Shown here piece after piece: positions 1 to 27,177 of a DNA stretch of 58,802 bases. A program made the translations under genes and the position numbers. This DNA comes from Candidatus Campbellbacteria bacterium (GTDB taxonomy: Bacteria; Patescibacteriota; Minisyncoccia; Phycocordibacterales; EsbW-18). The notes beneath the pieces were generated by a model that saw only the letters and a list, made by a program, of their open reading frames with translations, was not told where the DNA came from and did not search any database. Position 1 is the first letter of the stretch. Every line of letters starts with the position of its first letter. The DNA lies in contig BTUR01000005.1 in NCBI GenBank assembly GCA_045863475.1, forward strand, positions 1 through 58,802, in the 5' to 3' direction.

Positions 1-1277
<1,277 letters not shown>

Positions 1278-1319
1278 GGGAATCTGAAAATCGTCACACA
1301 CCTGATTTCTTTATTGCCT

Positions 1320-1366
1320 GTCCCGTTAGAAGTAGGACGCGTGCGTCCGCACCTCTCTAATGGGAC
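1320..1366. repeat. CCCGTTAGA...TCTAAYGGG inverted-repeat element, copy 1
   Basis: Arms GTCCCGTTAGA / TCTAATGGGAC; the same arms recur at 34779-34881. Confidence 0.6.
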
Positions 1367-1396
1367 GCATGAATACTAAAGAGTGAAAAATTTCAC

Positions 1397-1499
1397 GGGG
1401 CCGGGTCTCTCCCCGAAAGGAGAGGGGCACGATGATGCGTGTGCGGCAAGCCGCGCCTCTAGGACGGGTCAAGGGTTCCAAACCCTCCCGGTCCCACCA
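1397..1499 (+). ncRNA. Aberrant tRNA-like element ending in ACCA
   Basis: GGGGCCGGG/CCCGGTCCC acceptor-like stem plus ACCA, and a T-arm-like AGGG-TTCCAAA-CCCT. There is no canonical D arm or anticodon arm. Confidence 0.6.
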
Positions 1500-1509
1500 T
1501 GTAATTCAC

Positions 1510-1658
1510 GGGCCTGTAGCTCAGAGAAGATTGTCCTAATTCGGTTGGTACCGTGGCCTTAAAGTGAGGCCAGGGGTTCGACGCCCCTTCGGACGATCGA
1601 GTAAAGAGCGCCCGGGTTACAACCGGGAGGTCGTGGTTAAAGCCCACCAGGCCCACCA
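1510..1658 (+). tRNA. tRNA-Val(TAC)-like gene with an ~70-nt cloverleaf-like insertion in the D-loop; function uncertain
   Basis: GGGCCTG/CAGGCCC+ACCA acceptor, TAGCTCAG...AGAGC D-stem, anticodon arm CCCGG-GTTACAA-CCGGG, and a deviant T-arm GTGG-TTAAAGC-CCAC. Confidence 0.65.
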
Positions 1659-1688
1659 AACCAAACGATTTCACAACAGTTCTTTCCT

Positions 1689-1714
1689 GCGGATGACGAA
1701 AGGCATCCGCACCA
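1689..1714 (+). ncRNA. tRNA acceptor microhelix (Leu-like stem) ending in ACCA
   Basis: GCGGATG-ACGAAAGG-CATCCGC-ACCA: a perfect 7-bp stem, a discriminator base and CCA. Confidence 0.5.
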
Positions 1715-1744
1715 CTCTTTAGTATTTATGTATGCAGTTGAACG

Positions 1745-2179
1745 TCGAATGCTGTGTTCTGGTTGGTCGAAGGGGTATTCACGAATATTTTTCTGCTGAA
1801 AAATTTCGCGAACCCGCCTCGGCCCGTCGGCCTGCGGCCTTACGAAGCTTTGCTTCTCACCCGTTCCATTCCGAGACAGGAAGCCTGTCCCGCAGTGAAA
1901 TTTGAAAACTAAATAGAAGAGATGAGCATTTTGTTCTGGTGGCTTAACGATGGGGTTACACCCGTTCTCATTCCGAACACGGAAGTTAAGACCATTAGTG
2001 CCGATGGTAGTCCGAAAGGGCGAGAGTAGGTAGCCGCCAGAACAAAGTACTCATCCATATCAAATTTCCACCGCGGGATTAAGACCGCGAGTAGCCTAGG
2101 TAGTTCTGCCCGAGCGAGAGTAGGGCACGTCCAGCACTTAGATTAAGTGCTGGATAAACCGCCAGAACAAAGCATTCGA
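1745..2179 (+). ncRNA. Outer, insertion-interrupted 5S rRNA-like RNA enclosing the intact 5S gene
   Basis: Colinear 5S segments GTTCTGGTTGG..GGGGT / CACCCGTTCCATTCCGAGACAGGAAG / TTAAGACC..GGTAGT..GCGAGAGTAGG / CCGCCAGAACAAAG. The two ends are complementary. Confidence 0.7.
1933..2043 (+). rRNA. rrf: 5S rRNA (intact, inner copy)
   Basis: CACCCGTTCTCATTCCGAACACGGAAGTTAAG, GCCGATGGTAGT and GAGAGTAGG motifs; terminal helix GTTCTGGTGG/CCGCCAGAAC. Confidence 0.95.
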
Positions 2180-2183
2180 ACAT

Positions 2184-2210
2184 AAAAAACAGCCCGATGG
2201 GCTGTTTTTT
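2184..2210 (+). terminator. Intrinsic terminator of the rRNA operon
   Basis: AAAAAACAGCCC-GAT-GGGCTGTTTTTT. Confidence 0.85.
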
Positions 2211-2241
2211 AATTCACGAAACCTTGGTATCCTTTGCATAT

Positions 2242-3003
2242 ATGACATGGGCATCACGCAGACAGGGCTTGTATCTCCTTGGGACGATTGTCGTCCTCGG
2301 CCTTCTGTTTGGGGTGCCGCTGTATTTTTATCTCTACGACGAGCCAACGTGTCGAGACGGCATACAAAACGGTTTGGAAGAAGGTGTGGACTGCGGCGGC
2401 GGGTGTGAAAAAGTATGTGCGTTCCAGGCCATTGAGCCTATCGTGCACTGGAAGCAAGAATTTGAAGTCGCTCCCGGTGTGTACACCGTTGTTGCGCTTG
2501 TTGAAAACGCAAACGATTCCTATGAATCCGTTGCGGTTCCGTACGTGTTCCGTCTCTATGACTCTAAAAACGTTTTCATCGCGGAGCGGAAAGGGCAGGT
2601 GTATCTTTCGCCGCACATGGTGATTCCGGTATTTGAGACCGGTATTCACACGGGAGAGCGCGTGCCGACTCGCGTGGAATTTTTGTTTGAGAAAGAAATT
2701 GTCTGGACGAACTCGGCGTTTTCTCTACCGGATGTCGATGTCATTTCCCGGAGGTTTGAAAACGAGGATGCGGCACCGCGATTACTTGTGACGCTGCGAA
2801 ACAACACGCTCTACACATTTTCGCGCATTCCCGTTGTTGTTGTGCTGTACGATGCTTCCGACAACGCATTGCACGCCTCACGCACTGTCATCCCCAGTTT
2901 GCCCGCAACCTCGGATAAAGAAATTGTGTTTACGTGGCCGCAGCCATTTGGGGCACCGGTGGCACGTGTTGACGTGGTGCAGTTGTATCCGTTTTCCCAA
3001 TAA
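2242..3003 (+). CDS. Membrane-anchored exported protein with a Cys-rich CxDGIQNGxExGVDCGGGC motif and FxLYD-like Ig domains
   Basis: N-terminal TM helix, the Cys motif and FRLYD/VLYD repeats. Start moved to ATG 2242 because the upstream part overlaps the terminator. Confidence 0.75.
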   Translation: MTWASRRQGLYLLGTIVVLGLLFGVPLYFYLYDEPTCRDGIQNGLEEGVDCGGGCEKVCAFQAIEPIVHWKQEFEVAPGVYTVVALVENANDSYESVAVPYVFRLYDSKNVFIAERKGQVYLSPHMVIPVFETGIHTGERVPTRVEFLFEKEIVWTNSAFSLPDVDVISRRFENEDAAPRLLVTLRNNTLYTFSRIPVVVVLYDASDNALHASRTVIPSLPATSDKEIVFTWPQPFGAPVARVDVVQLYPFSQ

Positions 3004-3009
3004 CGCTCT

Positions 3010-4113
3010 ATGCCTTTTCTCGCGCTGCGCTCCATTGACTGGGTGTTGCTCATCAGCGCACTCGCACTCTCGGGTGCCGGGTTGGTGACGATGAACTCGT
3101 TCATTGAACCAAATATCTTTTTTGAACAGCAAATCGTCTGGCTGCTCCTGTCGCTCGCTGTTTTCTTCGCCGCGTCGCTTGTTGACTGGCGGTTTTTGCG
3201 CAATACATGGGTCGTCGTGTCATTGCTTCTTATCTCCGTTCTCTCGCTCGTGCTCCTCTTTCTGTTCGGAACCGTGACGCTTGGTGCTGTTTCGCGCTTT
3301 GACCTGGGACTGTTCTTCATTCAACCGTCTGACCCGGCAAAACTCGTACTCATTATTATTCTCGCAAAATATTTCTCGCGTCGGCACGTTGAAATTGCGC
3401 ACGTGCGCCACATTCTCGTCTCCGGATTGTACGCGTTTTTGTTTTTTGTGCTGTTGTTCGTTCAGCCGGACTTCGGTGGCGCCATCGTGGTGTTCTTTTT
3501 GTGGCTTGGCATGGTGCTCGTCTCGGGCATCTCAAAAAAGCACCTCGCACTCGTGTTTGTTGTGGGTGCACTCGCGTTCGGGACACTGTGGGGTTTCGTG
3601 TTCCAGGATTACCAAAAAGACCGCATTCGCACCTTCCTCAACCCGCTTACCGACATTCAGGGGGCTGGCTACAACGCGTACCAATCCACCATCACCGTCG
3701 GCTCGGGGCAGCTGTTGGGTAAGGGAATAGGTTTCGGCACGCAATCACGCCTTCAGTTTTTGCCGGAATATGAAACAGACTTTATTTTCGGTGCATTTGC
3801 GGAGGAATGGGGGTTCATCGGGGTCCTCTTCTTACTTCTGTGTTTTGCCGTCGTCGTAGGACGTATTATGCACGGCGCTTTTTTGGGCGCGACGAATTTT
3901 GAAACACTGTTTGCGGTTGGCGTCGCGCTTTCAATTGTGGCACCTGCGGCAATCCACATCGGTATGAACATAGGTCTGCTTCCCGTAACCGGAACGGTGC
4001 TCCCGTTTGTTTCATACGGCGGTAGTCACCTAGTCGTTGAGTTTCTTTCTCTGGGCATGCTTGCCGGTATGCGCCGCTATCGCCGCGACGTCCACCGCGA
4101 ACTTGTTAGTTAG
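3010..4113 (+). CDS. rodA: SEDS peptidoglycan glycosyltransferase RodA/FtsW
   Basis: IQPSD.AK, QPDFG, GSGQLLGKG, LPEYETDFIF..FAEEWG and LPFVSYGGS motifs. Confidence 0.93.
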   Translation: MPFLALRSIDWVLLISALALSGAGLVTMNSFIEPNIFFEQQIVWLLLSLAVFFAASLVDWRFLRNTWVVVSLLLISVLSLVLLFLFGTVTLGAVSRFDLGLFFIQPSDPAKLVLIIILAKYFSRRHVEIAHVRHILVSGLYAFLFFVLLFVQPDFGGAIVVFFLWLGMVLVSGISKKHLALVFVVGALAFGTLWGFVFQDYQKDRIRTFLNPLTDIQGAGYNAYQSTITVGSGQLLGKGIGFGTQSRLQFLPEYETDFIFGAFAEEWGFIGVLFLLLCFAVVVGRIMHGAFLGATNFETLFAVGVALSIVAPAAIHIGMNIGLLPVTGTVLPFVSYGGSHLVVEFLSLGMLAGMRRYRRDVHRELVS

Positions 4114-4207
4114 GGAACAGGGAACGGACGACGGGGAACAGAAAAAATTAAAACAACGCGCCGTGTGGCGCGTTGTCCCGTTCCCTAGTAACTGTTCCCG
4201 ATTCCCT
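4112..4207. repeat. GGGAACA-heptamer inverted-repeat element, copy 1
   Basis: TAGGGAACAGGGAACGG ... TCCCGTTCCCTAGTAACTGTTCCCGATTCCCT; near-identical arms at 39597-39717. Confidence 0.7.
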
Positions 4208-4211
4208 TGAC

Positions 4212-4757
4212 TCACTGTTCGTACTTCCCAACCACAAACTCAAATCCGCCAACATTCGGATCACCAAAATCAAAACCGGAGCATGACCAACCGGGGGAGA
4301 GCTGGTGCCGACCGTTGCTCACTTCCATGTCTACGACGCCGAGCACATAGTATCCGCCGCGGTTTGCGGGGCATCCGAATGCTCCTGCTGGGAATTTGTA
4401 GTACCGAAGGTTTGCTTGATCAGCGAGCGGGTCAAAGACGTGGCCCTGCATGTTTTTGCTTGCAACGAGTTCGGTAAGGAAATCACCGTCTTCTGGGGTA
4501 TCCCAATTGCCCACGGGAGCATCGTGCGCTTGGTAGAGACTCTGATTGTCGCTGTCAGGATATGAAGAATTTGTCGTGAAGTAGAGTTCCAGCCCCGTCT
4601 GCAATTCACGGATGGATGCGATGCGCTTGCTGTCGCGCGCGTTTTTGCGCGCGCTGTTGGTAGCTGAGAGGATGACGCTTGCGAGCAACGAGATAATGGA
4701 AACCGACACAAGAATCTCGATGAGCGTGAAACCGCGGCTGTGTCGTGTGAGGCGCAT
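4212..4757 (-). CDS. Type IV pilin / GspG-like prepilin
   Basis: RG|FTLIEILVSVSIISLL class III signal and ARD.KR...I..LQ..LELY motif. Start could be 4781. Confidence 0.88.
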   Translation of the reverse strand: MRLTRHSRGFTLIEILVSVSIISLLASVILSATNSARKNARDSKRIASIRELQTGLELYFTTNSSYPDSDNQSLYQAHDAPVGNWDTPEDGDFLTELVASKNMQGHVFDPLADQANLRYYKFPAGAFGCPANRGGYYVLGVVDMEVSNGRHQLSPGWSCSGFDFGDPNVGGFEFVVGKYEQ

Positions 4758-4761
4758 AGGT

Positions 4762-5010
4762 TTATGATTGTTGATTTTCAAATCCGGGAGGAATGACCCG
4801 TTGCGTGTTAAGTGGCGGTTCGTTCACCGTCCTGAGAAACAAAAACAGTGCGGCTGAGAAACAGATGAGCCCTGTCGCCAAGAGTATGACGCGCGCACTT
4901 GCCACTGACTTCGCAATGCCGCTGCGTACCAAAAGCATAACGAGGAATCCGTCGGACTTTCTCGCAGAAATAGGGCTTAGTTGCGGCTCATCGAATACGA
5001 CGTCAACCAT
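4762..5010 (-). CDS. Small membrane protein
   Basis: Hydrophobic helix; a -10-like TACCAT lies 7 nt before the ATG. Confidence 0.55.
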   Translation of the reverse strand: MVDVVFDEPQLSPISARKSDGFLVMLLVRSGIAKSVASARVILLATGLICFSAALFLFLRTVNEPPLNTQRVIPPGFENQQS

Positions 5011-5263
5011 GTGGATAATGGTATAGGGTAACAAGACTCTTGTCGACGGTGTTTTGTGGACTAGGAATCCGCACAGGTCTGTTTTTTGGTCGACTAACGG
5101 GCAATCTCACCTCCGGTTTTCGCAAACCATTTTTGTCGAGTGCGGAAGTGTTTTAAATATCCGGAGCCGCATATCGGCTTAACAGGGCTGTTTTTTGGAT
5201 ATCAGGCCCGTTTGATTGAAGTTGTGTGTTCGTGCTTTTCACCGATTGCCGTACTATACACAC

Positions 5264-6076
5264 ATGCTTATCGACGGCAGACACATAGGAGCGGACGTAC
5301 GGAACAAAGTTGCAACGGCGTTTGCGCATTCAAAGAAGAATTTGACGCTCGGTGTCCTCTCAATCGGCGGGGACGCGGTGACGGAGCAGTTTATACGTAT
5401 CAAGAAAAAAGCGGCTGATGCCATTGGTATTCCGGTCATTGACGTCGCACTTCCTGAAGAAGTGAGTACGGATGATGTTCTCCGCGCTCTCACGGATCTC
5501 ATCGCGCGGACAAACGCCGTCGTCGTACAGCTTCCACTGCCGGCGCACGTCGACCGTGCACGGATATTTTCTGCACTCCCTGCATCGCATGATGTTGATT
5601 GTCTGGGGGATGAGGCGCGTGCGTCATTTGAAAACGGCGGGCCGCTGCTGCCTCCGGTGGTGGCCGCATGTAAAGAGATTCTTGAGCGCTACAGCGTTGC
5701 GGTTGCAGGAAAAAGCGTCGTTGTTGTGGGCCGCGGAGTGCTTGTTGGTGCGCCTGCGGCGAAATGGTTTTCACGGCAAGGTGCCGCGGTGAACGTGCTT
5801 GATGAAAATGACAGTATCGCTGTGTACACGCAAAGTGCGGATATCATTGTGCTCGGTGCGGGACATCCCGGGCTCTTGAAACCGGACATGATACAAAAAG
5901 GAGTCGTGGTGCTTGATGCGGGAACATCCGAGAGTGGTGGGAGGGTTATTGGCGATGCCGACCCTGCATGTGCTGAGAAAGCATTGCTGCTGACACCTGT
6001 TCCGGGTGGTGTGGGCCCTGTGGCGGTCGCAAAAATATTTGAGAACCTGCTTATCTGCAATAGTATTCCGTTCTAA
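5264..6076 (+). CDS. folD: Methylene-THF dehydrogenase/cyclohydrolase
   Basis: MLIDG, VQLPLP, VVGRG.LVG.P and TPVPGGVGPV motifs. Confidence 0.93.
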   Translation: MLIDGRHIGADVRNKVATAFAHSKKNLTLGVLSIGGDAVTEQFIRIKKKAADAIGIPVIDVALPEEVSTDDVLRALTDLIARTNAVVVQLPLPAHVDRARIFSALPASHDVDCLGDEARASFENGGPLLPPVVAACKEILERYSVAVAGKSVVVVGRGVLVGAPAAKWFSRQGAAVNVLDENDSIAVYTQSADIIVLGAGHPGLLKPDMIQKGVVVLDAGTSESGGRVIGDADPACAEKALLLTPVPGGVGPVAVAKIFENLLICNSIPF

Positions 6077-27090: not shown

Positions 27091-27177
27091 GGAGAGGTGC
27101 CAGAGTGGTTGAATGGAGCACCCTGCTAAGGTGTTGAGGGGGAAACCCCTCCGAGGGTTCGAATCCCTCCCTCTCCG
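27091..27177 (+). tRNA. tRNA-Ser(GCT)
   Basis: GGAGAGG/CCTCTCC acceptor, anticodon loop CTGCTAA, long variable arm, GGTTCGAATCC and G73. Confidence 0.96.

What the first reader, a model, noticed from the sequence alone, without database searches (positions are those of the whole stretch)
1397..2210. rRNA-operon tail built from nested and reduced tRNA/5S modules: candidate new RNA system
Between the 23S end and the operon terminator lie four unusual RNA modules in a row: an aberrant CCA-ending cloverleaf, a tRNA inside a tRNA, a CCA microhelix, and a 5S inside a 5S-like RNA. Stems remain paired although the sequences differ from canonical copies, which suggests selection on structure rather than simple decay. 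All three tRNA-like units encode CCA, whereas the ordinary tRNA-Ser in this window does not. Hypotheses: an RNase P/Z processing scaffold, decoys for nucleases or ribosomal proteins, or an alternative expanded 5S for specialised ribosomes.
Basis: partly seen in the sequence, partly recalled or inferred. Interest (0 to 1): 0.85.

Follow-up and report, generated by a model that had tools for sequence, protein, structure and literature searches.

The report
Nested 5S and tRNA-like rRNA tail
The end of this small bacterium's ribosomal RNA operon carries tRNA look-alikes enclosed by a long stem, and a working 5S gene sitting inside the two halves of a second, worn 5S copy; related genomes share this layout, which probably guides cutting of the rRNA precursor.

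Summary
The four modules are real and the assembly holds: contigs from runs of three studies cover the junctions.

- The tRNA-like units are the cargo of a 19-bp long-range stem (1367-1385/1713-1731). This stem is uninterrupted for at least 17 bp in 10 of 15 long 23S-5S spacers of the order.
- The "CCA microhelix" is a conserved terminal hairpin. Its CCA is the first bases of that stem, not a free tRNA end.
- The true 5S (1935-2042) has its own 18-bp leader/trailer stem and lies inside a degraded 5S copy split at GGAAG|TTAAG. The same split site and stem occur in G002, G056 and G086.

The block 1779-2175 is 81-94% identical to G002, while four-fold codon sites next door are 44% identical.

The outer copy also holds a multi-hairpin repeat found across Parcubacteria, often just after tRNA genes.

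RNase P RNA, RNase III and a CCA-adding enzyme domain were found; RNase E/G, M5 and Z were not.

Best reading: a selected precursor-processing scaffold built from duplicated tRNA and 5S material. There are no RNA data.

The parts
1..1277 (+). 3' part of 23S rRNA, with a 303-nt insertion at about 690-992
   Evidence: Rfam LSU_rRNA_bacteria, 875 bits, model positions 1933-2925
1278..1298 (+). Conserved 23S trailer
   Evidence: 20 of 21 identical to G002, after which the alignment is lost
1367..1385 (+). 5' strand of the long-range spacer stem (S-stem)
   Evidence: 19-bp uninterrupted helix with 1713-1731; shuffle maximum 13; formed in the MFE fold
1397..1499 (+). tRNA-like unit 1: 9-bp acceptor-like stem, two hairpins, T-arm-like hairpin, ACCA; no anticodon loop
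   Evidence: Fold; no tRNA call
1510..1658 (+). tRNA-like unit 2 (anticodon UAC, ACCA) with an 83-nt D loop
   Evidence: Alignment with the G013 unit; model R1 scores 171 bits here and 168 bits in L005
1529..1598 (+). Stem-closed insert in the D loop, with a T-arm-like hairpin at 1572-1588
   Evidence: Fold z -3.87; shared motifs with the G013 insert
1689..1710 (+).
   Evidence: Fold z -3.56; an equivalent hairpin directly before the S-stem 3' strand in 9 of 11 spacers
1713..1731 (+). 3' strand of the S-stem
1756..1778 (+). Outer 5S copy: helix I and II 5' strands
   Evidence: 19 of 23 aligned letters identical to the true 5S; only 10 of 24 identical to G002
1779..1860 (-). Copy of the Parcubacteria-wide multi-hairpin repeat (three hairpins), antisense to the rRNA, inserted at loop B of the outer 5S
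   Evidence: Multi-locus BLAST matches in relatives; 120 exact-core stretches in named Parcubacteria records; 61 of 75 identical to G002 with 3 compensatory pairs
1857..1885 (+). Outer 5S copy: helix III and loop C, ending in GGAAG
   Evidence: 25 of 29 aligned letters identical to the true 5S
1888..1905 (+). Leader strand of the stem that flanks the true 5S
   Evidence: Pairs with 2060-2078 in the consensus fold, with compensatory pair 1888-2078; same motif 20-26 nt upstream of the 5S in G002, G056, G086, G119 and G069
1935..2042 (+). Functional-looking 5S rRNA
   Evidence: Rfam 5S_rRNA, 78.2 bits, full length; 101 of 108 identical to G002
2060..2078 (+). Trailer strand of the 5S-flanking stem
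2075..2126 (+). Outer 5S copy: from TTAAG through helices II (3' strand), V and IV
   Evidence: 37 of 52 aligned letters identical to the true 5S; 70 of 84 identical to G002 over 2043-2126
2130..2154 (+). Hairpin inserted just before the helix I 3' strand of the outer copy
   Evidence: Consensus fold; a hairpin of unrelated sequence sits at the same place in G056
2155..2169 (+). Outer 5S copy: helix I 3' strand
   Evidence: 12 of 15 identical to the true 5S end
2184..2210 (+). Terminator-like hairpin with an A run before and a T run after
   Evidence: Read from the sequence; the scanner did not list it

Best explanation
This is the co-transcribed 3' tail of the single rRNA operon of a small (734 kb) Parcubacteria-type genome. 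It is built from duplicated tRNA and 5S material that now serves as a processing and folding scaffold.

**Shown**
1. A 19-bp stem in the 23S-5S spacer encloses a 327-nt cargo: two CCA-ending tRNA-like units that are not decoders, plus a terminal hairpin.
2. The true 5S has an 18-bp leader/trailer stem and sits inside a second, degraded 5S copy split at GGAAG|TTAAG.
3. The outer copy carries a repeat element.
4. The block 1779-2175 is under constraint, or was exchanged recently.

**Inferred**
- RNase III cuts the two long stems. This separates the 23S trailer, the cargo and the pre-5S.
- RNase P cuts at the 5' G of each tRNA-like unit (1397 and 1510). The encoded CCA helps recognition and stops 3' trimming.
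- Exonucleases finish the 5S ends.
- This replaces the RNase E/G or M5 routes, which were not found.
- The outer 5S halves arose by insertion or duplication. They are kept because they pair with each other and with the stems rather than disturbing the inner 5S.
For: **Assembly**
- Contigs of three studies bridge the junctions.

**S-stem**
- It is at least 17 bp and uninterrupted in 10 of 15 long spacers; shuffle maxima are 13-16.
- The strands covary between genomes.
- A terminal hairpin precedes the 3' strand in 9 of 11 spacers.

**tRNA-like units**
- Rfam tRNA hits lie between 23S and 5S in 13 of 29 relatives' loci.
- None of 21 such units resembles the cognate canonical tRNA; best identities are 0.66-0.82.
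- Several have 'Leu' anticodons on short-arm bodies or tetraloops.
- 13 of 22 are followed by CCA. The background is 6 of 45 tRNAs in this genome and 27 of 196 in other Parcubacteria loci.
- D-loop-expanded first units occur in G013, G165 and G123, always in the 23S-5S spacer.

**Nested 5S**
- Identity to G002: element 61/75, outer 5' part plus stem 67/80, 5S 101/108, outer 3' part 70/84. For comparison: four-fold sites 44/100, protein 179/253, 23S 509/580.
- The consensus fold has 126 pairs: 5 compensatory, 9 one-sided, 0 broken.
- The same split site and stem occur in G056 (three levels) and G086.

**Enzymes**
- RNase P RNA found at 83 bits. RNase III and the PolyA_pol domain found above cut-off. 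RNase Z, M5 and E/G not found.
- Passages of PMC12641178 say CPR keep RNase J, RNase III and PNPase.
Against: - No RNA evidence of any kind, so no cleavage site is shown.
- The cargo is unalignable even with G002. Unit 1 has only a loose analogue, in G011.
- The outer 5S keeps 20 of 31 consensus pairs, and its first 25 nt are not conserved: 10 of 24.
- The covariation count rests on two sequences and on a fold chosen to fit them.
- Conservation with G002 could reflect recent transfer or gene conversion.
- Enzyme absences rest on single models in a 98% complete assembly.
- Relatives are kin, so the counts are not independent.
Confidence: 0.5

Rival explanations
1. Selfish DNA without an RNA-level role. 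The unit [inverted repeat - 5S - inverted repeat] is, or was, a site-specific insertion cassette. It lands in loop B of a resident 5S gene and replaces it, leaving nested shells. The tRNA-like cargo and the multi-hairpin repeat are likewise insertions that pile up in a tolerant spot.
For: - The junction GGAAG|TTAAG and 17-20-bp terminal inverted repeats are the same in G000, G002, G056 and G086.
- G056 has three nesting levels, and the second insertion has similar ends about 5 nt away.
- One-sided forms occur: an upstream half only in G069, and downstream parts in G005, G119, G003 and G004.
- The repeat is multi-copy (123 copies in 120 loci) and is flanked by duplicated tRNA 3' ends.
- Cargo content turns over between species of one genus.
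Against: - No transposase, integrase or endonuclease is seen in or beside the unit; ORFs are 71 aa or shorter.
- The shells are conserved like rRNA while four-fold sites are saturated.
- The leader motif also precedes the 5S in G119, which shows no 5S-like upstream half, so the stem may simply be an old processing stem.
- No copy was seen away from a 5S locus. Other motif matches are a different variant.
Confidence: 0.25
2. Neutral decay. The extra tRNA-like and 5S-like pieces are pseudogenes from old duplications, with no function and no mobility. The likeness to G002 is shared ancestry only.
For: - The outer 5S has lost 11 of 31 consensus pairs.
- The tRNA-like units fail both tRNA detectors.
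- The cargo is not conserved with G002.
Against: - The block is 81-89% identical outside the 5S, while four-fold sites are at 44 of 100 and the intergenic flanks are unalignable.
- Compensatory changes occur in stems.
- The architecture recurs in other families.
Confidence: 0.1
3. The outer copy is a working two-piece expanded 5S for special ribosomes, or a decoy for 5S-binding proteins.
For: - Helix I keeps 7 of 9 pairs and helix III 6 of 8.
- Both large insertions sit at loop B.
- A hairpin is inserted at the same place before the helix I 3' strand in G000 and G056.
Against: - Helix II keeps 3 of 6 pairs, helix V 3 of 6 and helix IV 1 of 2.
- There is no Rfam 5S match at E up to 1.
- The 5'-most 25 nt differ between G000 and G002: 10 of 24 identical.
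Confidence: 0.08
4. Assembly artefact: repeats of 5S and tRNA sequence were joined wrongly.
For: Some relatives' contigs end inside or at the 5S (G005, G010, G012), as repeats would cause.
Against: - X2 contigs cover 1200-1557 and 1543-2300 with 0 differences.
- An X3 contig covers 1775-1994.
- X5 contigs cover 1961-2068 and 2039-2132.
- G002, an independent genome, has the same order of parts.
Confidence: 0.02

Closest known systems
tRNA-like elements used as processing signals. The example seen here is 5S 5'-end maturation by tRNase Z in Haloferax volcanii (stated in passages of PMC7714728, citing Holzle 2008 and 2012). Mitochondrial tRNA punctuation, plant mitochondrial t-elements and mascRNA are recalled, not seen.
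   Same: Non-decoding tRNA look-alikes sit in an rRNA precursor next to the 5S. They keep the acceptor/T-arm minihelix that tRNA-end enzymes recognise.
   Different: This is a bacterium. The units encode CCA, which (recalled) blocks RNase Z, and no RNase Z was found, so RNase P would be the enzyme. The units are enclosed by a long stem, vary in number and kind between species, and some have large D-loop inserts. Nothing has been tested biochemically.
[quoted passage not shown]
   Same: An insertion sits at a fixed site of an rRNA gene, its ends form a long duplex, and RNase III is present in the genome.
   Different: The host gene is a 5S and the insert carries a complete 5S gene, so it is the insert that looks functional, not the host. 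PMC9297842 describes insertions in 16S and 23S and a shortened 5S. In the passages seen it mentions neither insertions in the 5S nor tRNA-like units.
tRNA genes inside rRNA operons (16S-23S spacer tRNA-Ile/Ala, distal tRNA clusters; recalled)
   Same: The units are co-transcribed with rRNA and have tRNA-shaped bodies. Some relatives' units read as ordinary Ile, Met or Lys tRNAs.
   Different: They lie between 23S and 5S and do not resemble the cognate tRNAs of the genome. Many have non-canonical anticodon loops. CCA is encoded far more often than in ordinary tRNA genes.
Small non-autonomous repeats such as REP/BIME and MITEs (recalled)
   Same: The 1779-1860 element is a multi-copy, hairpin-rich, non-coding repeat found in intergenic DNA.
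   Different: Its core is conserved across many candidate phyla-level groups, better than the 5S is between families. Its place and orientation after tRNA genes are preferred: 64 of 123 copies. Some copies are flanked by long duplications of the neighbouring gene's end. It matches no Rfam family.

Membership tests
tRNA (RF00005) | Recognised by covariance model or ARAGORN as a cloverleaf of normal size | tested here: not met
   No tRNA match in 1-6000 at E up to 1. ARAGORN finds only tRNA-Ser at 27091.
tRNA (RF00005) | 7-bp acceptor stem, T arm directly abutting it, and a single-stranded NCCA end | tested here: met
   Unit 2: GGGCCTG/CAGGCCC plus ACCA. Unit 1: 9 bp plus ACCA, with a T-arm-like hairpin abutting.
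tRNA (RF00005) | 5-bp anticodon stem with a 7-nt loop, U33 and a purine at 37 | tested here: inconclusive
   Met in unit 2 (loop GTTACAA, 1616-1622). Not met in unit 1, whose central arm ends in a tetraloop.
tRNA (RF00005) | D loop of normal size and a canonical T loop | tested here: not met
   Unit 2 has an 83-nt D loop and the T loop TTAAAGC.
5S rRNA (RF00001), inner copy | Full-length match above the gathering score | tested here: met
   78.2 bits against 38, model positions 1-120.
5S rRNA (RF00001), outer copy | Consensus helices I-V maintained | tested here: not met
   20 of 31 consensus pairs kept (I 7/9, II 3/6, III 6/8, V 3/6, IV 1/2). No Rfam match at E up to 1.
tRNA-like processing element | Cleaved by RNase P or RNase Z at the unit's ends in the precursor | not testable with these tools
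   No RNA holder is listed among the public runs. Only the presence of RNase P RNA is shown.
RNase III-excised intervening sequence | Insertion at a fixed site of an rRNA gene, with ends that form a long duplex | tested here: met
   The GGAAG|TTAAG junction and a 17-20-bp stem occur in G000, G002, G056 and G086.
RNase III-excised intervening sequence | Excision from the RNA, leaving a working fragmented host rRNA | not testable with these tools
   No RNA data. The host copy looks degraded.
Mobile insertion element (transposon/MITE) | Copies at several unrelated sites, with terminal repeats and target duplications, or a linked transposase | tested here: inconclusive
   For the 5S cassette: terminal inverted repeats are present, but copies occur only at 5S loci and no enzyme gene is seen. 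For the hairpin repeat: many sites and long flanking duplications in some copies, but none in others.

The most novel reading that the evidence does not exclude
A 5S rRNA gene bracketed by 17-20-bp inverted repeats behaves as a self-replacing cassette. It inserts at one site (loop B, GGAAG|TTAAG) of the resident 5S gene, supplies a new working 5S, and leaves the old gene as a shell. Repeated rounds give the two- and three-level 'Russian doll' 5S loci seen in several Parcubacteria families. This would be an essential rRNA gene acting as its own mobile element.
Probability: 0.25. Interest if true: 0.8.

Novelty: new variant of a known kind. Interest (0 to 1): 0.62.

Why it matters
CPR/Patescibacteria have about half the usual ribosome-biogenesis factors (abstract of PMC12641178, listed). 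How they mature 23S and 5S is not known.

- A tail made of RNase III-type stems and RNase P-type tRNA look-alikes gives a concrete, testable route for 5S maturation without RNase E/G or M5.
- The nested 5S loci, found here in at least four genomes of three families, are an unusual gene architecture. They either record repeated site-specific insertion of an rRNA gene into itself or are a selected precursor fold.
- The conserved multi-hairpin element after tRNA genes is an unclassified structured element of a very large bacterial group.
- These structures break tRNA and 5S detectors and contig assembly at rRNA operons, which matters for annotating CPR genomes.

Tried and rejected

- A 20-mer scan of metagenome contigs gave one contig (L051). 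On alignment it was unrelated, a chance match.
- Public runs: no RNA holder is listed. X7, labelled RNA-Seq but marked probably DNA, covered only 1200-1419 and short repeats, so nothing can be said on expression.
- Model R1 searched over 151 genomes of the order returned almost only ordinary 75-nt tRNAs. Only G165 and G123 were long matches among the 150 matches listed, and 117 further matches were not listed.
- Rfam gave no family for the hairpin repeat on 16 loci at E up to 1.
- The promoter/terminator scanner did not list the + strand terminator that I read at 2184-2210. It listed one minus-strand site inside the repeat.

**Analyses I dropped**
- RNAduplex on whole spacer halves gave energies no better than shuffles for most spacers and was uninformative. 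I replaced it with a longest-uninterrupted-helix count.
- An aligner with nearly free long gaps 'found' 31 of 31 outer pairs by picking scattered letters. I rejected this as an artefact and replaced it with block-wise alignment.
- The motif AWTTCAC directly precedes both tRNA-like units (1390-1396, 1503-1509). It is not enriched window-wide: 17 matches against 20.3 expected. Locally, 4 of the 7 plus-strand matches fall in 1278-2217. Relatives' units lack it. I left it as a remark.

**Ideas considered and dropped**
- Unit 2 as a recent copy of the genome's tRNA-Val(UAC): 48 of 65 identical, no better than other tRNAs.
- A protein-coding explanation.
- A group I intron in the D loop: the insert is only 83 nt and there is no Rfam match.

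**Papers**
- Library searches found no description of tRNA-like units between 23S and 5S or of nested 5S genes in CPR. 'tRNA-like' with 'Patescibacteria' gave 0 papers.
- Two papers were not held. One is the preprint on group I introns in Patescibacteria tRNA genes, of which I saw only the title, in a reference list.
- Supplements were not opened. Those of PMC9297842 (rRNA alignments) may bear on 5S insertions.
Full report
**1. What is there**

Rfam places the 3' part of a bacterial 23S rRNA at 1-1277, with a 303-nt insertion near 690-992, and a full-length 5S at 1935-2042 (78.2 bits). It finds nothing else at E up to 1 in 1-6000. ARAGORN finds one tRNA in the whole window, tRNA-Ser at 27091. 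So the 23S-5S spacer is 657 nt, and a further 170 nt follow the 5S before a hairpin with a T run at 2184-2210 (read; not listed by the scanner). No ORF longer than 71 aa overlaps the region.

The window is contig C5 of a 734-kb, 59-contig genome that is 98% complete. The repeat described in section 6 places it among Parcubacteria-type CPR bacteria, because its exact core occurs in records titled Ca. Nomurabacteria, Kaiserbacteria, Adlerbacteria, Taylorbacteria, Paceibacterota and others.

**2. The assembly holds**

Logan contigs of run X2 cover 1200-1557 and 1543-2300 with no differences. Contigs of X3 cover 1290-1531, 1506-1665 and 1775-1994. Contigs of X5 cover 1220-1452, 1453-1603, 1961-2068, 2039-2132 and 2159-2300. 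These runs belong to three studies; X2 shares its study with the possible source sample. The junctions repeat/outer 5S/inner 5S and inner 5S/outer 3' part are therefore seen independently. No run is on record as RNA (see Tried and rejected).

**3. Modules 1-3 are the cargo of one conserved stem**

- Window 1367-1385 pairs with 1713-1731 as a 19-bp uninterrupted helix.
- I scanned 15 long spacers: G000 and 14 relatives' loci. The longest uninterrupted 5'/3' helix was 17-23 bp in 10 of them (G000, L002, L004, L005, L007, L022, L021, L025, L029, L030) and 12-15 bp in the other 5. Shuffle maxima were 13-16.
- The strands differ between genomes yet stay complementary.
- The stem forms in the minimum-energy fold of 1360-1735, which has z -6.0; 0 of 100 shuffles fold as well.
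- Directly before the 3' strand, 9 of 11 spacers have a hairpin of unrelated sequence. Here it is 1689-1710.
ACCA follows the hairpin in only 3 of the 9 (G000, L022, L030), where it is the ACCAC of the stem. It is not a tRNA-like 3' end.

**4. The tRNA-like units**

*Unit 1 (1397-1499)* folds into a 9-bp acceptor-like stem, a 6-bp hairpin, a central arm capped by a tetraloop, and a T-arm-like hairpin that abuts the 3' strand, followed by ACCA.

*Unit 2 (1510-1658)* has a 7-bp acceptor stem, a D stem, a regular anticodon arm reading UAC, a weak T arm and ACCA. Its D loop is 83 nt and holds a stem-closed unit with a canonical-looking T arm.
- The genome has a normal tRNA-Val(UAC) elsewhere. Unit 2 is no closer to it (48 of 65) than to other tRNAs.

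*In relatives:*
- Rfam tRNA hits lie between 23S and 5S in 13 of 29 loci. ARAGORN reads their anticodons as Leu, Lys, Met, Cys, Asn, Ile and Gly, differing from species to species.
- None of 21 such units resembles the cognate tRNA of G000; best identities to any canonical tRNA are 0.66-0.82.
- Several are plainly not decoders: 'Leu' anticodons on bodies without the long arm, a tetraloop in L025, irregular loops.
- 13 of 22 are followed by CCA. The background is 6 of 45 tRNA genes in this genome and 27 of 196 in other Parcubacteria loci. These are kin, so the contrast is descriptive.
- A unit with the acceptor GGRCCTR/YAGGYCC, followed by CCA in all but L024, recurs as the first unit in G000, G013, G006, G012, G038 and G024.
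- In G013 it carries a D-loop insert with the same stem and T-arm-like hairpin as here.
- A model built from these two units, searched over 151 genomes of the order, gave ordinary tRNAs plus two long matches among those listed, G165 and G123. Both are the first unit of a 23S-5S spacer and have D-loop inserts of unrelated sequence.
- By contrast, the cargo of the nearest relative, G002, cannot be aligned with that of G000.

The shape of the cargo is conserved. Its sequence is not.

**5. The nested 5S**

Block-wise alignment shows that 1756-1778 and 1857-1885 copy the 5' half of the 5S up to GGAAG. Likewise, 2075-2126 and 2155-2169 copy the rest from TTAAG onward. Between the two halves lie:
- an 18-bp stem (1888-1905 with 2060-2078);
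- short spacers;
- the true 5S.

The outer copy also has the repeat element at loop B (1779-1860) and a hairpin (2130-2154) before its last strand. It keeps 20 of 31 consensus pairs: helix I 7/9, II 3/6, III 6/8, V 3/6, IV 1/2 (one helix V pair is lost to block overlap). It is 5S-derived but degraded.

Conservation against G002:

| Segment | Identical / aligned |
|---|---|
| Repeat element | 61/75 |
| Outer helix III, stem and spacer | 67/80 |
| True 5S | 101/108 |
| Spacer plus outer 3' part | 70/84 |
| Inserted hairpin | 24/27 |
| Last strand | 17/19 |
| First 25 nt of the outer copy | 10/24 |
| Adjacent protein (amino acids) | 179/253 |
| Four-fold codon sites of that gene | 44/100 |
| Last 600 nt of 23S | 509/580 |

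A consensus fold of the two sequences has 126 pairs: 112 unchanged, 9 changed on one side, 5 on both sides and none broken. That fold was chosen to fit both sequences.

The block is therefore constrained about as much as rRNA, unless it was exchanged recently.

The same plan recurs elsewhere:
- G056 has the same junction and stem, with a further 5S-like pair of halves between them. That makes three levels, and the second insertion has similar inverted ends.
- G086 has both halves.
- G069 has only the upstream half, with hairpin modules at the same loop-B site in the other orientation.
- G005, G119, G003 and G004 have downstream parts.
- G030 has two tandem 5S genes.

The leader motif was found with up to 2 mismatches in 15 of 301 genomes of the order, against 4 control hits. 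It lies 20-26 nt upstream of a 5S in six of them: G000, G002, G056, G086, G119 and G069.

**6. The repeat element**

Window 1779-1848 matched many loci in many relatives at 80-93% identity, better than the 5S does between families. Its core is two hairpins with conserved loops and covarying stems. A third hairpin is present in the window's type.

- Of 123 copies in these, 64 lie 47-226 nt beyond the 3' end of a tRNA gene, on the tRNA's strand. That is the reverse of the window's orientation. A further 20 have another tRNA within 300 nt, and 39 have none.
- Some copies are flanked by a stub and an exact repeat of the tRNA's last 18-20 nt. This includes two in the window's own genome. Others have only a short closing stem.
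- No Rfam family matches.
- Related hairpin modules sit inside partial 5S and tRNA copies next to the 5S in G003, G004, G034, G046 and G069.

I do not know what this element is. It is recorded under Noticed in passing.

**7. How the tail most likely works**

In the genome I found:
- RNase P RNA (83 bits, full length, below the family cut-off);
- RNase III;
- a PolyA_pol (CCA-adding type) domain.

I did not find RNase Z (TIGR02651), RNase M5 or RNase E/G. Passages of PMC12641178 state that CPR retain RNase J, RNase III and PNPase.

The tail offers exactly what these enzymes can use:
- two long perfect duplexes, one around the cargo and one around the 5S;
- acceptor/T-arm minihelices with CCA.

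I infer the following order of events:
1. RNase III cuts both duplexes.
2. RNase P cuts at G1397 and G1510.
3. Exonucleases finish the ends.
4. The outer 5S halves persist because pairing with each other and with the stems keeps them from competing with the inner 5S.

The cutting steps are inference; none is shown.

The closest known case is the archaeal 5S 5' end made by tRNase Z (PMC7714728, passages). That this works through a tRNA-like element upstream of the 5S is recalled, not seen.

**8. Rivals and verdict**

- The strongest rival is that the [repeat-5S-repeat] unit is a site-specific insertion cassette with no RNA role. The fixed junction and multi-level nesting favour it. The lack of any enzyme gene and the rRNA-like conservation of the shells count against it.
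- Neutral decay is made unlikely.
- An alternative 5S is made unlikely.
- Misassembly is made unlikely.

I found no description of these features in the searched library. I rate this a new variant of known kinds: tRNA-like processing signals and RNase III-type intervening sequences. Interest is moderate to high and rests on comparative evidence only.

Noticed in passing
window 1779-1860; own genome C1:218340-218440 and C4:43630-43745; loci L031-L050, L052-L171: A modular multi-hairpin repeat with conserved loops and covarying stems, found across Parcubacteria. About half of 123 copies lie just after a tRNA gene on its strand. Some are flanked by an exact repeat of the tRNA's last 18-20 nt. It matches no Rfam family.
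   Followed up: partly
L031 (G044:C59:900-1420): One copy of the repeat is flanked by a roughly 43-nt direct repeat that, on the other strand, is the start of an ORF (MLTYFQAIIIGALQG...). The upstream duplicate reads on through the element. That the gene looks like undecaprenyl-diphosphatase is recalled, not tested.
   Followed up: no
window about 690-992: A 303-nt insertion in the 23S gene has no Rfam match. Relatives carry group I introns in the same part of the 23S (L004, L007, L024, L025, L205).
   Followed up: no
L009 2519-2593 and L010 2384-2459: A CCA-ending tRNA-like unit, read as Leu(tag) but without the long arm, lies inside the span of the 23S match in G008 and G003. The two copies are 92-93% identical.
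   Followed up: no
whole genome G000: ARAGORN finds 45 tRNAs and a tmRNA but no tRNA-Asn. RNase Z, RNase M5 and RNase E/G models find nothing in this 98% complete assembly.
   Followed up: partly
L205 1527-1667 (G119): The 5S of G119 is 141 nt long, with a hairpin of about 33 nt inserted in helix IV, yet it still scores 74.9 bits.
   Followed up: no
L211, L212, L213, L215, L204, L208: A variant of the 5S leader motif (CCCGTAGTGAAATTTCAAAT) recurs 6 times in 5 genomes, at places with no 5S within 1.5 kb. It may be another small repeat.
   Followed up: no
window 1390-1396, 1503-1509, 1668-1674, 2211-2217: A(A/T)TTCAC occurs four times on the + strand within 940 nt, out of 7 in 58.8 kb. It directly precedes the 5' G of both tRNA-like units. 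It is not seen before relatives' units.
   Followed up: partly
window 2242-3003 and relatives' loci: The gene after the operon (253 aa from the ATG at 2242; N-terminal membrane segment, then a Cys-rich CGG.C motif) follows the 5S terminator in many relatives of the genus. The rRNA tail is therefore in conserved synteny.
   Followed up: no
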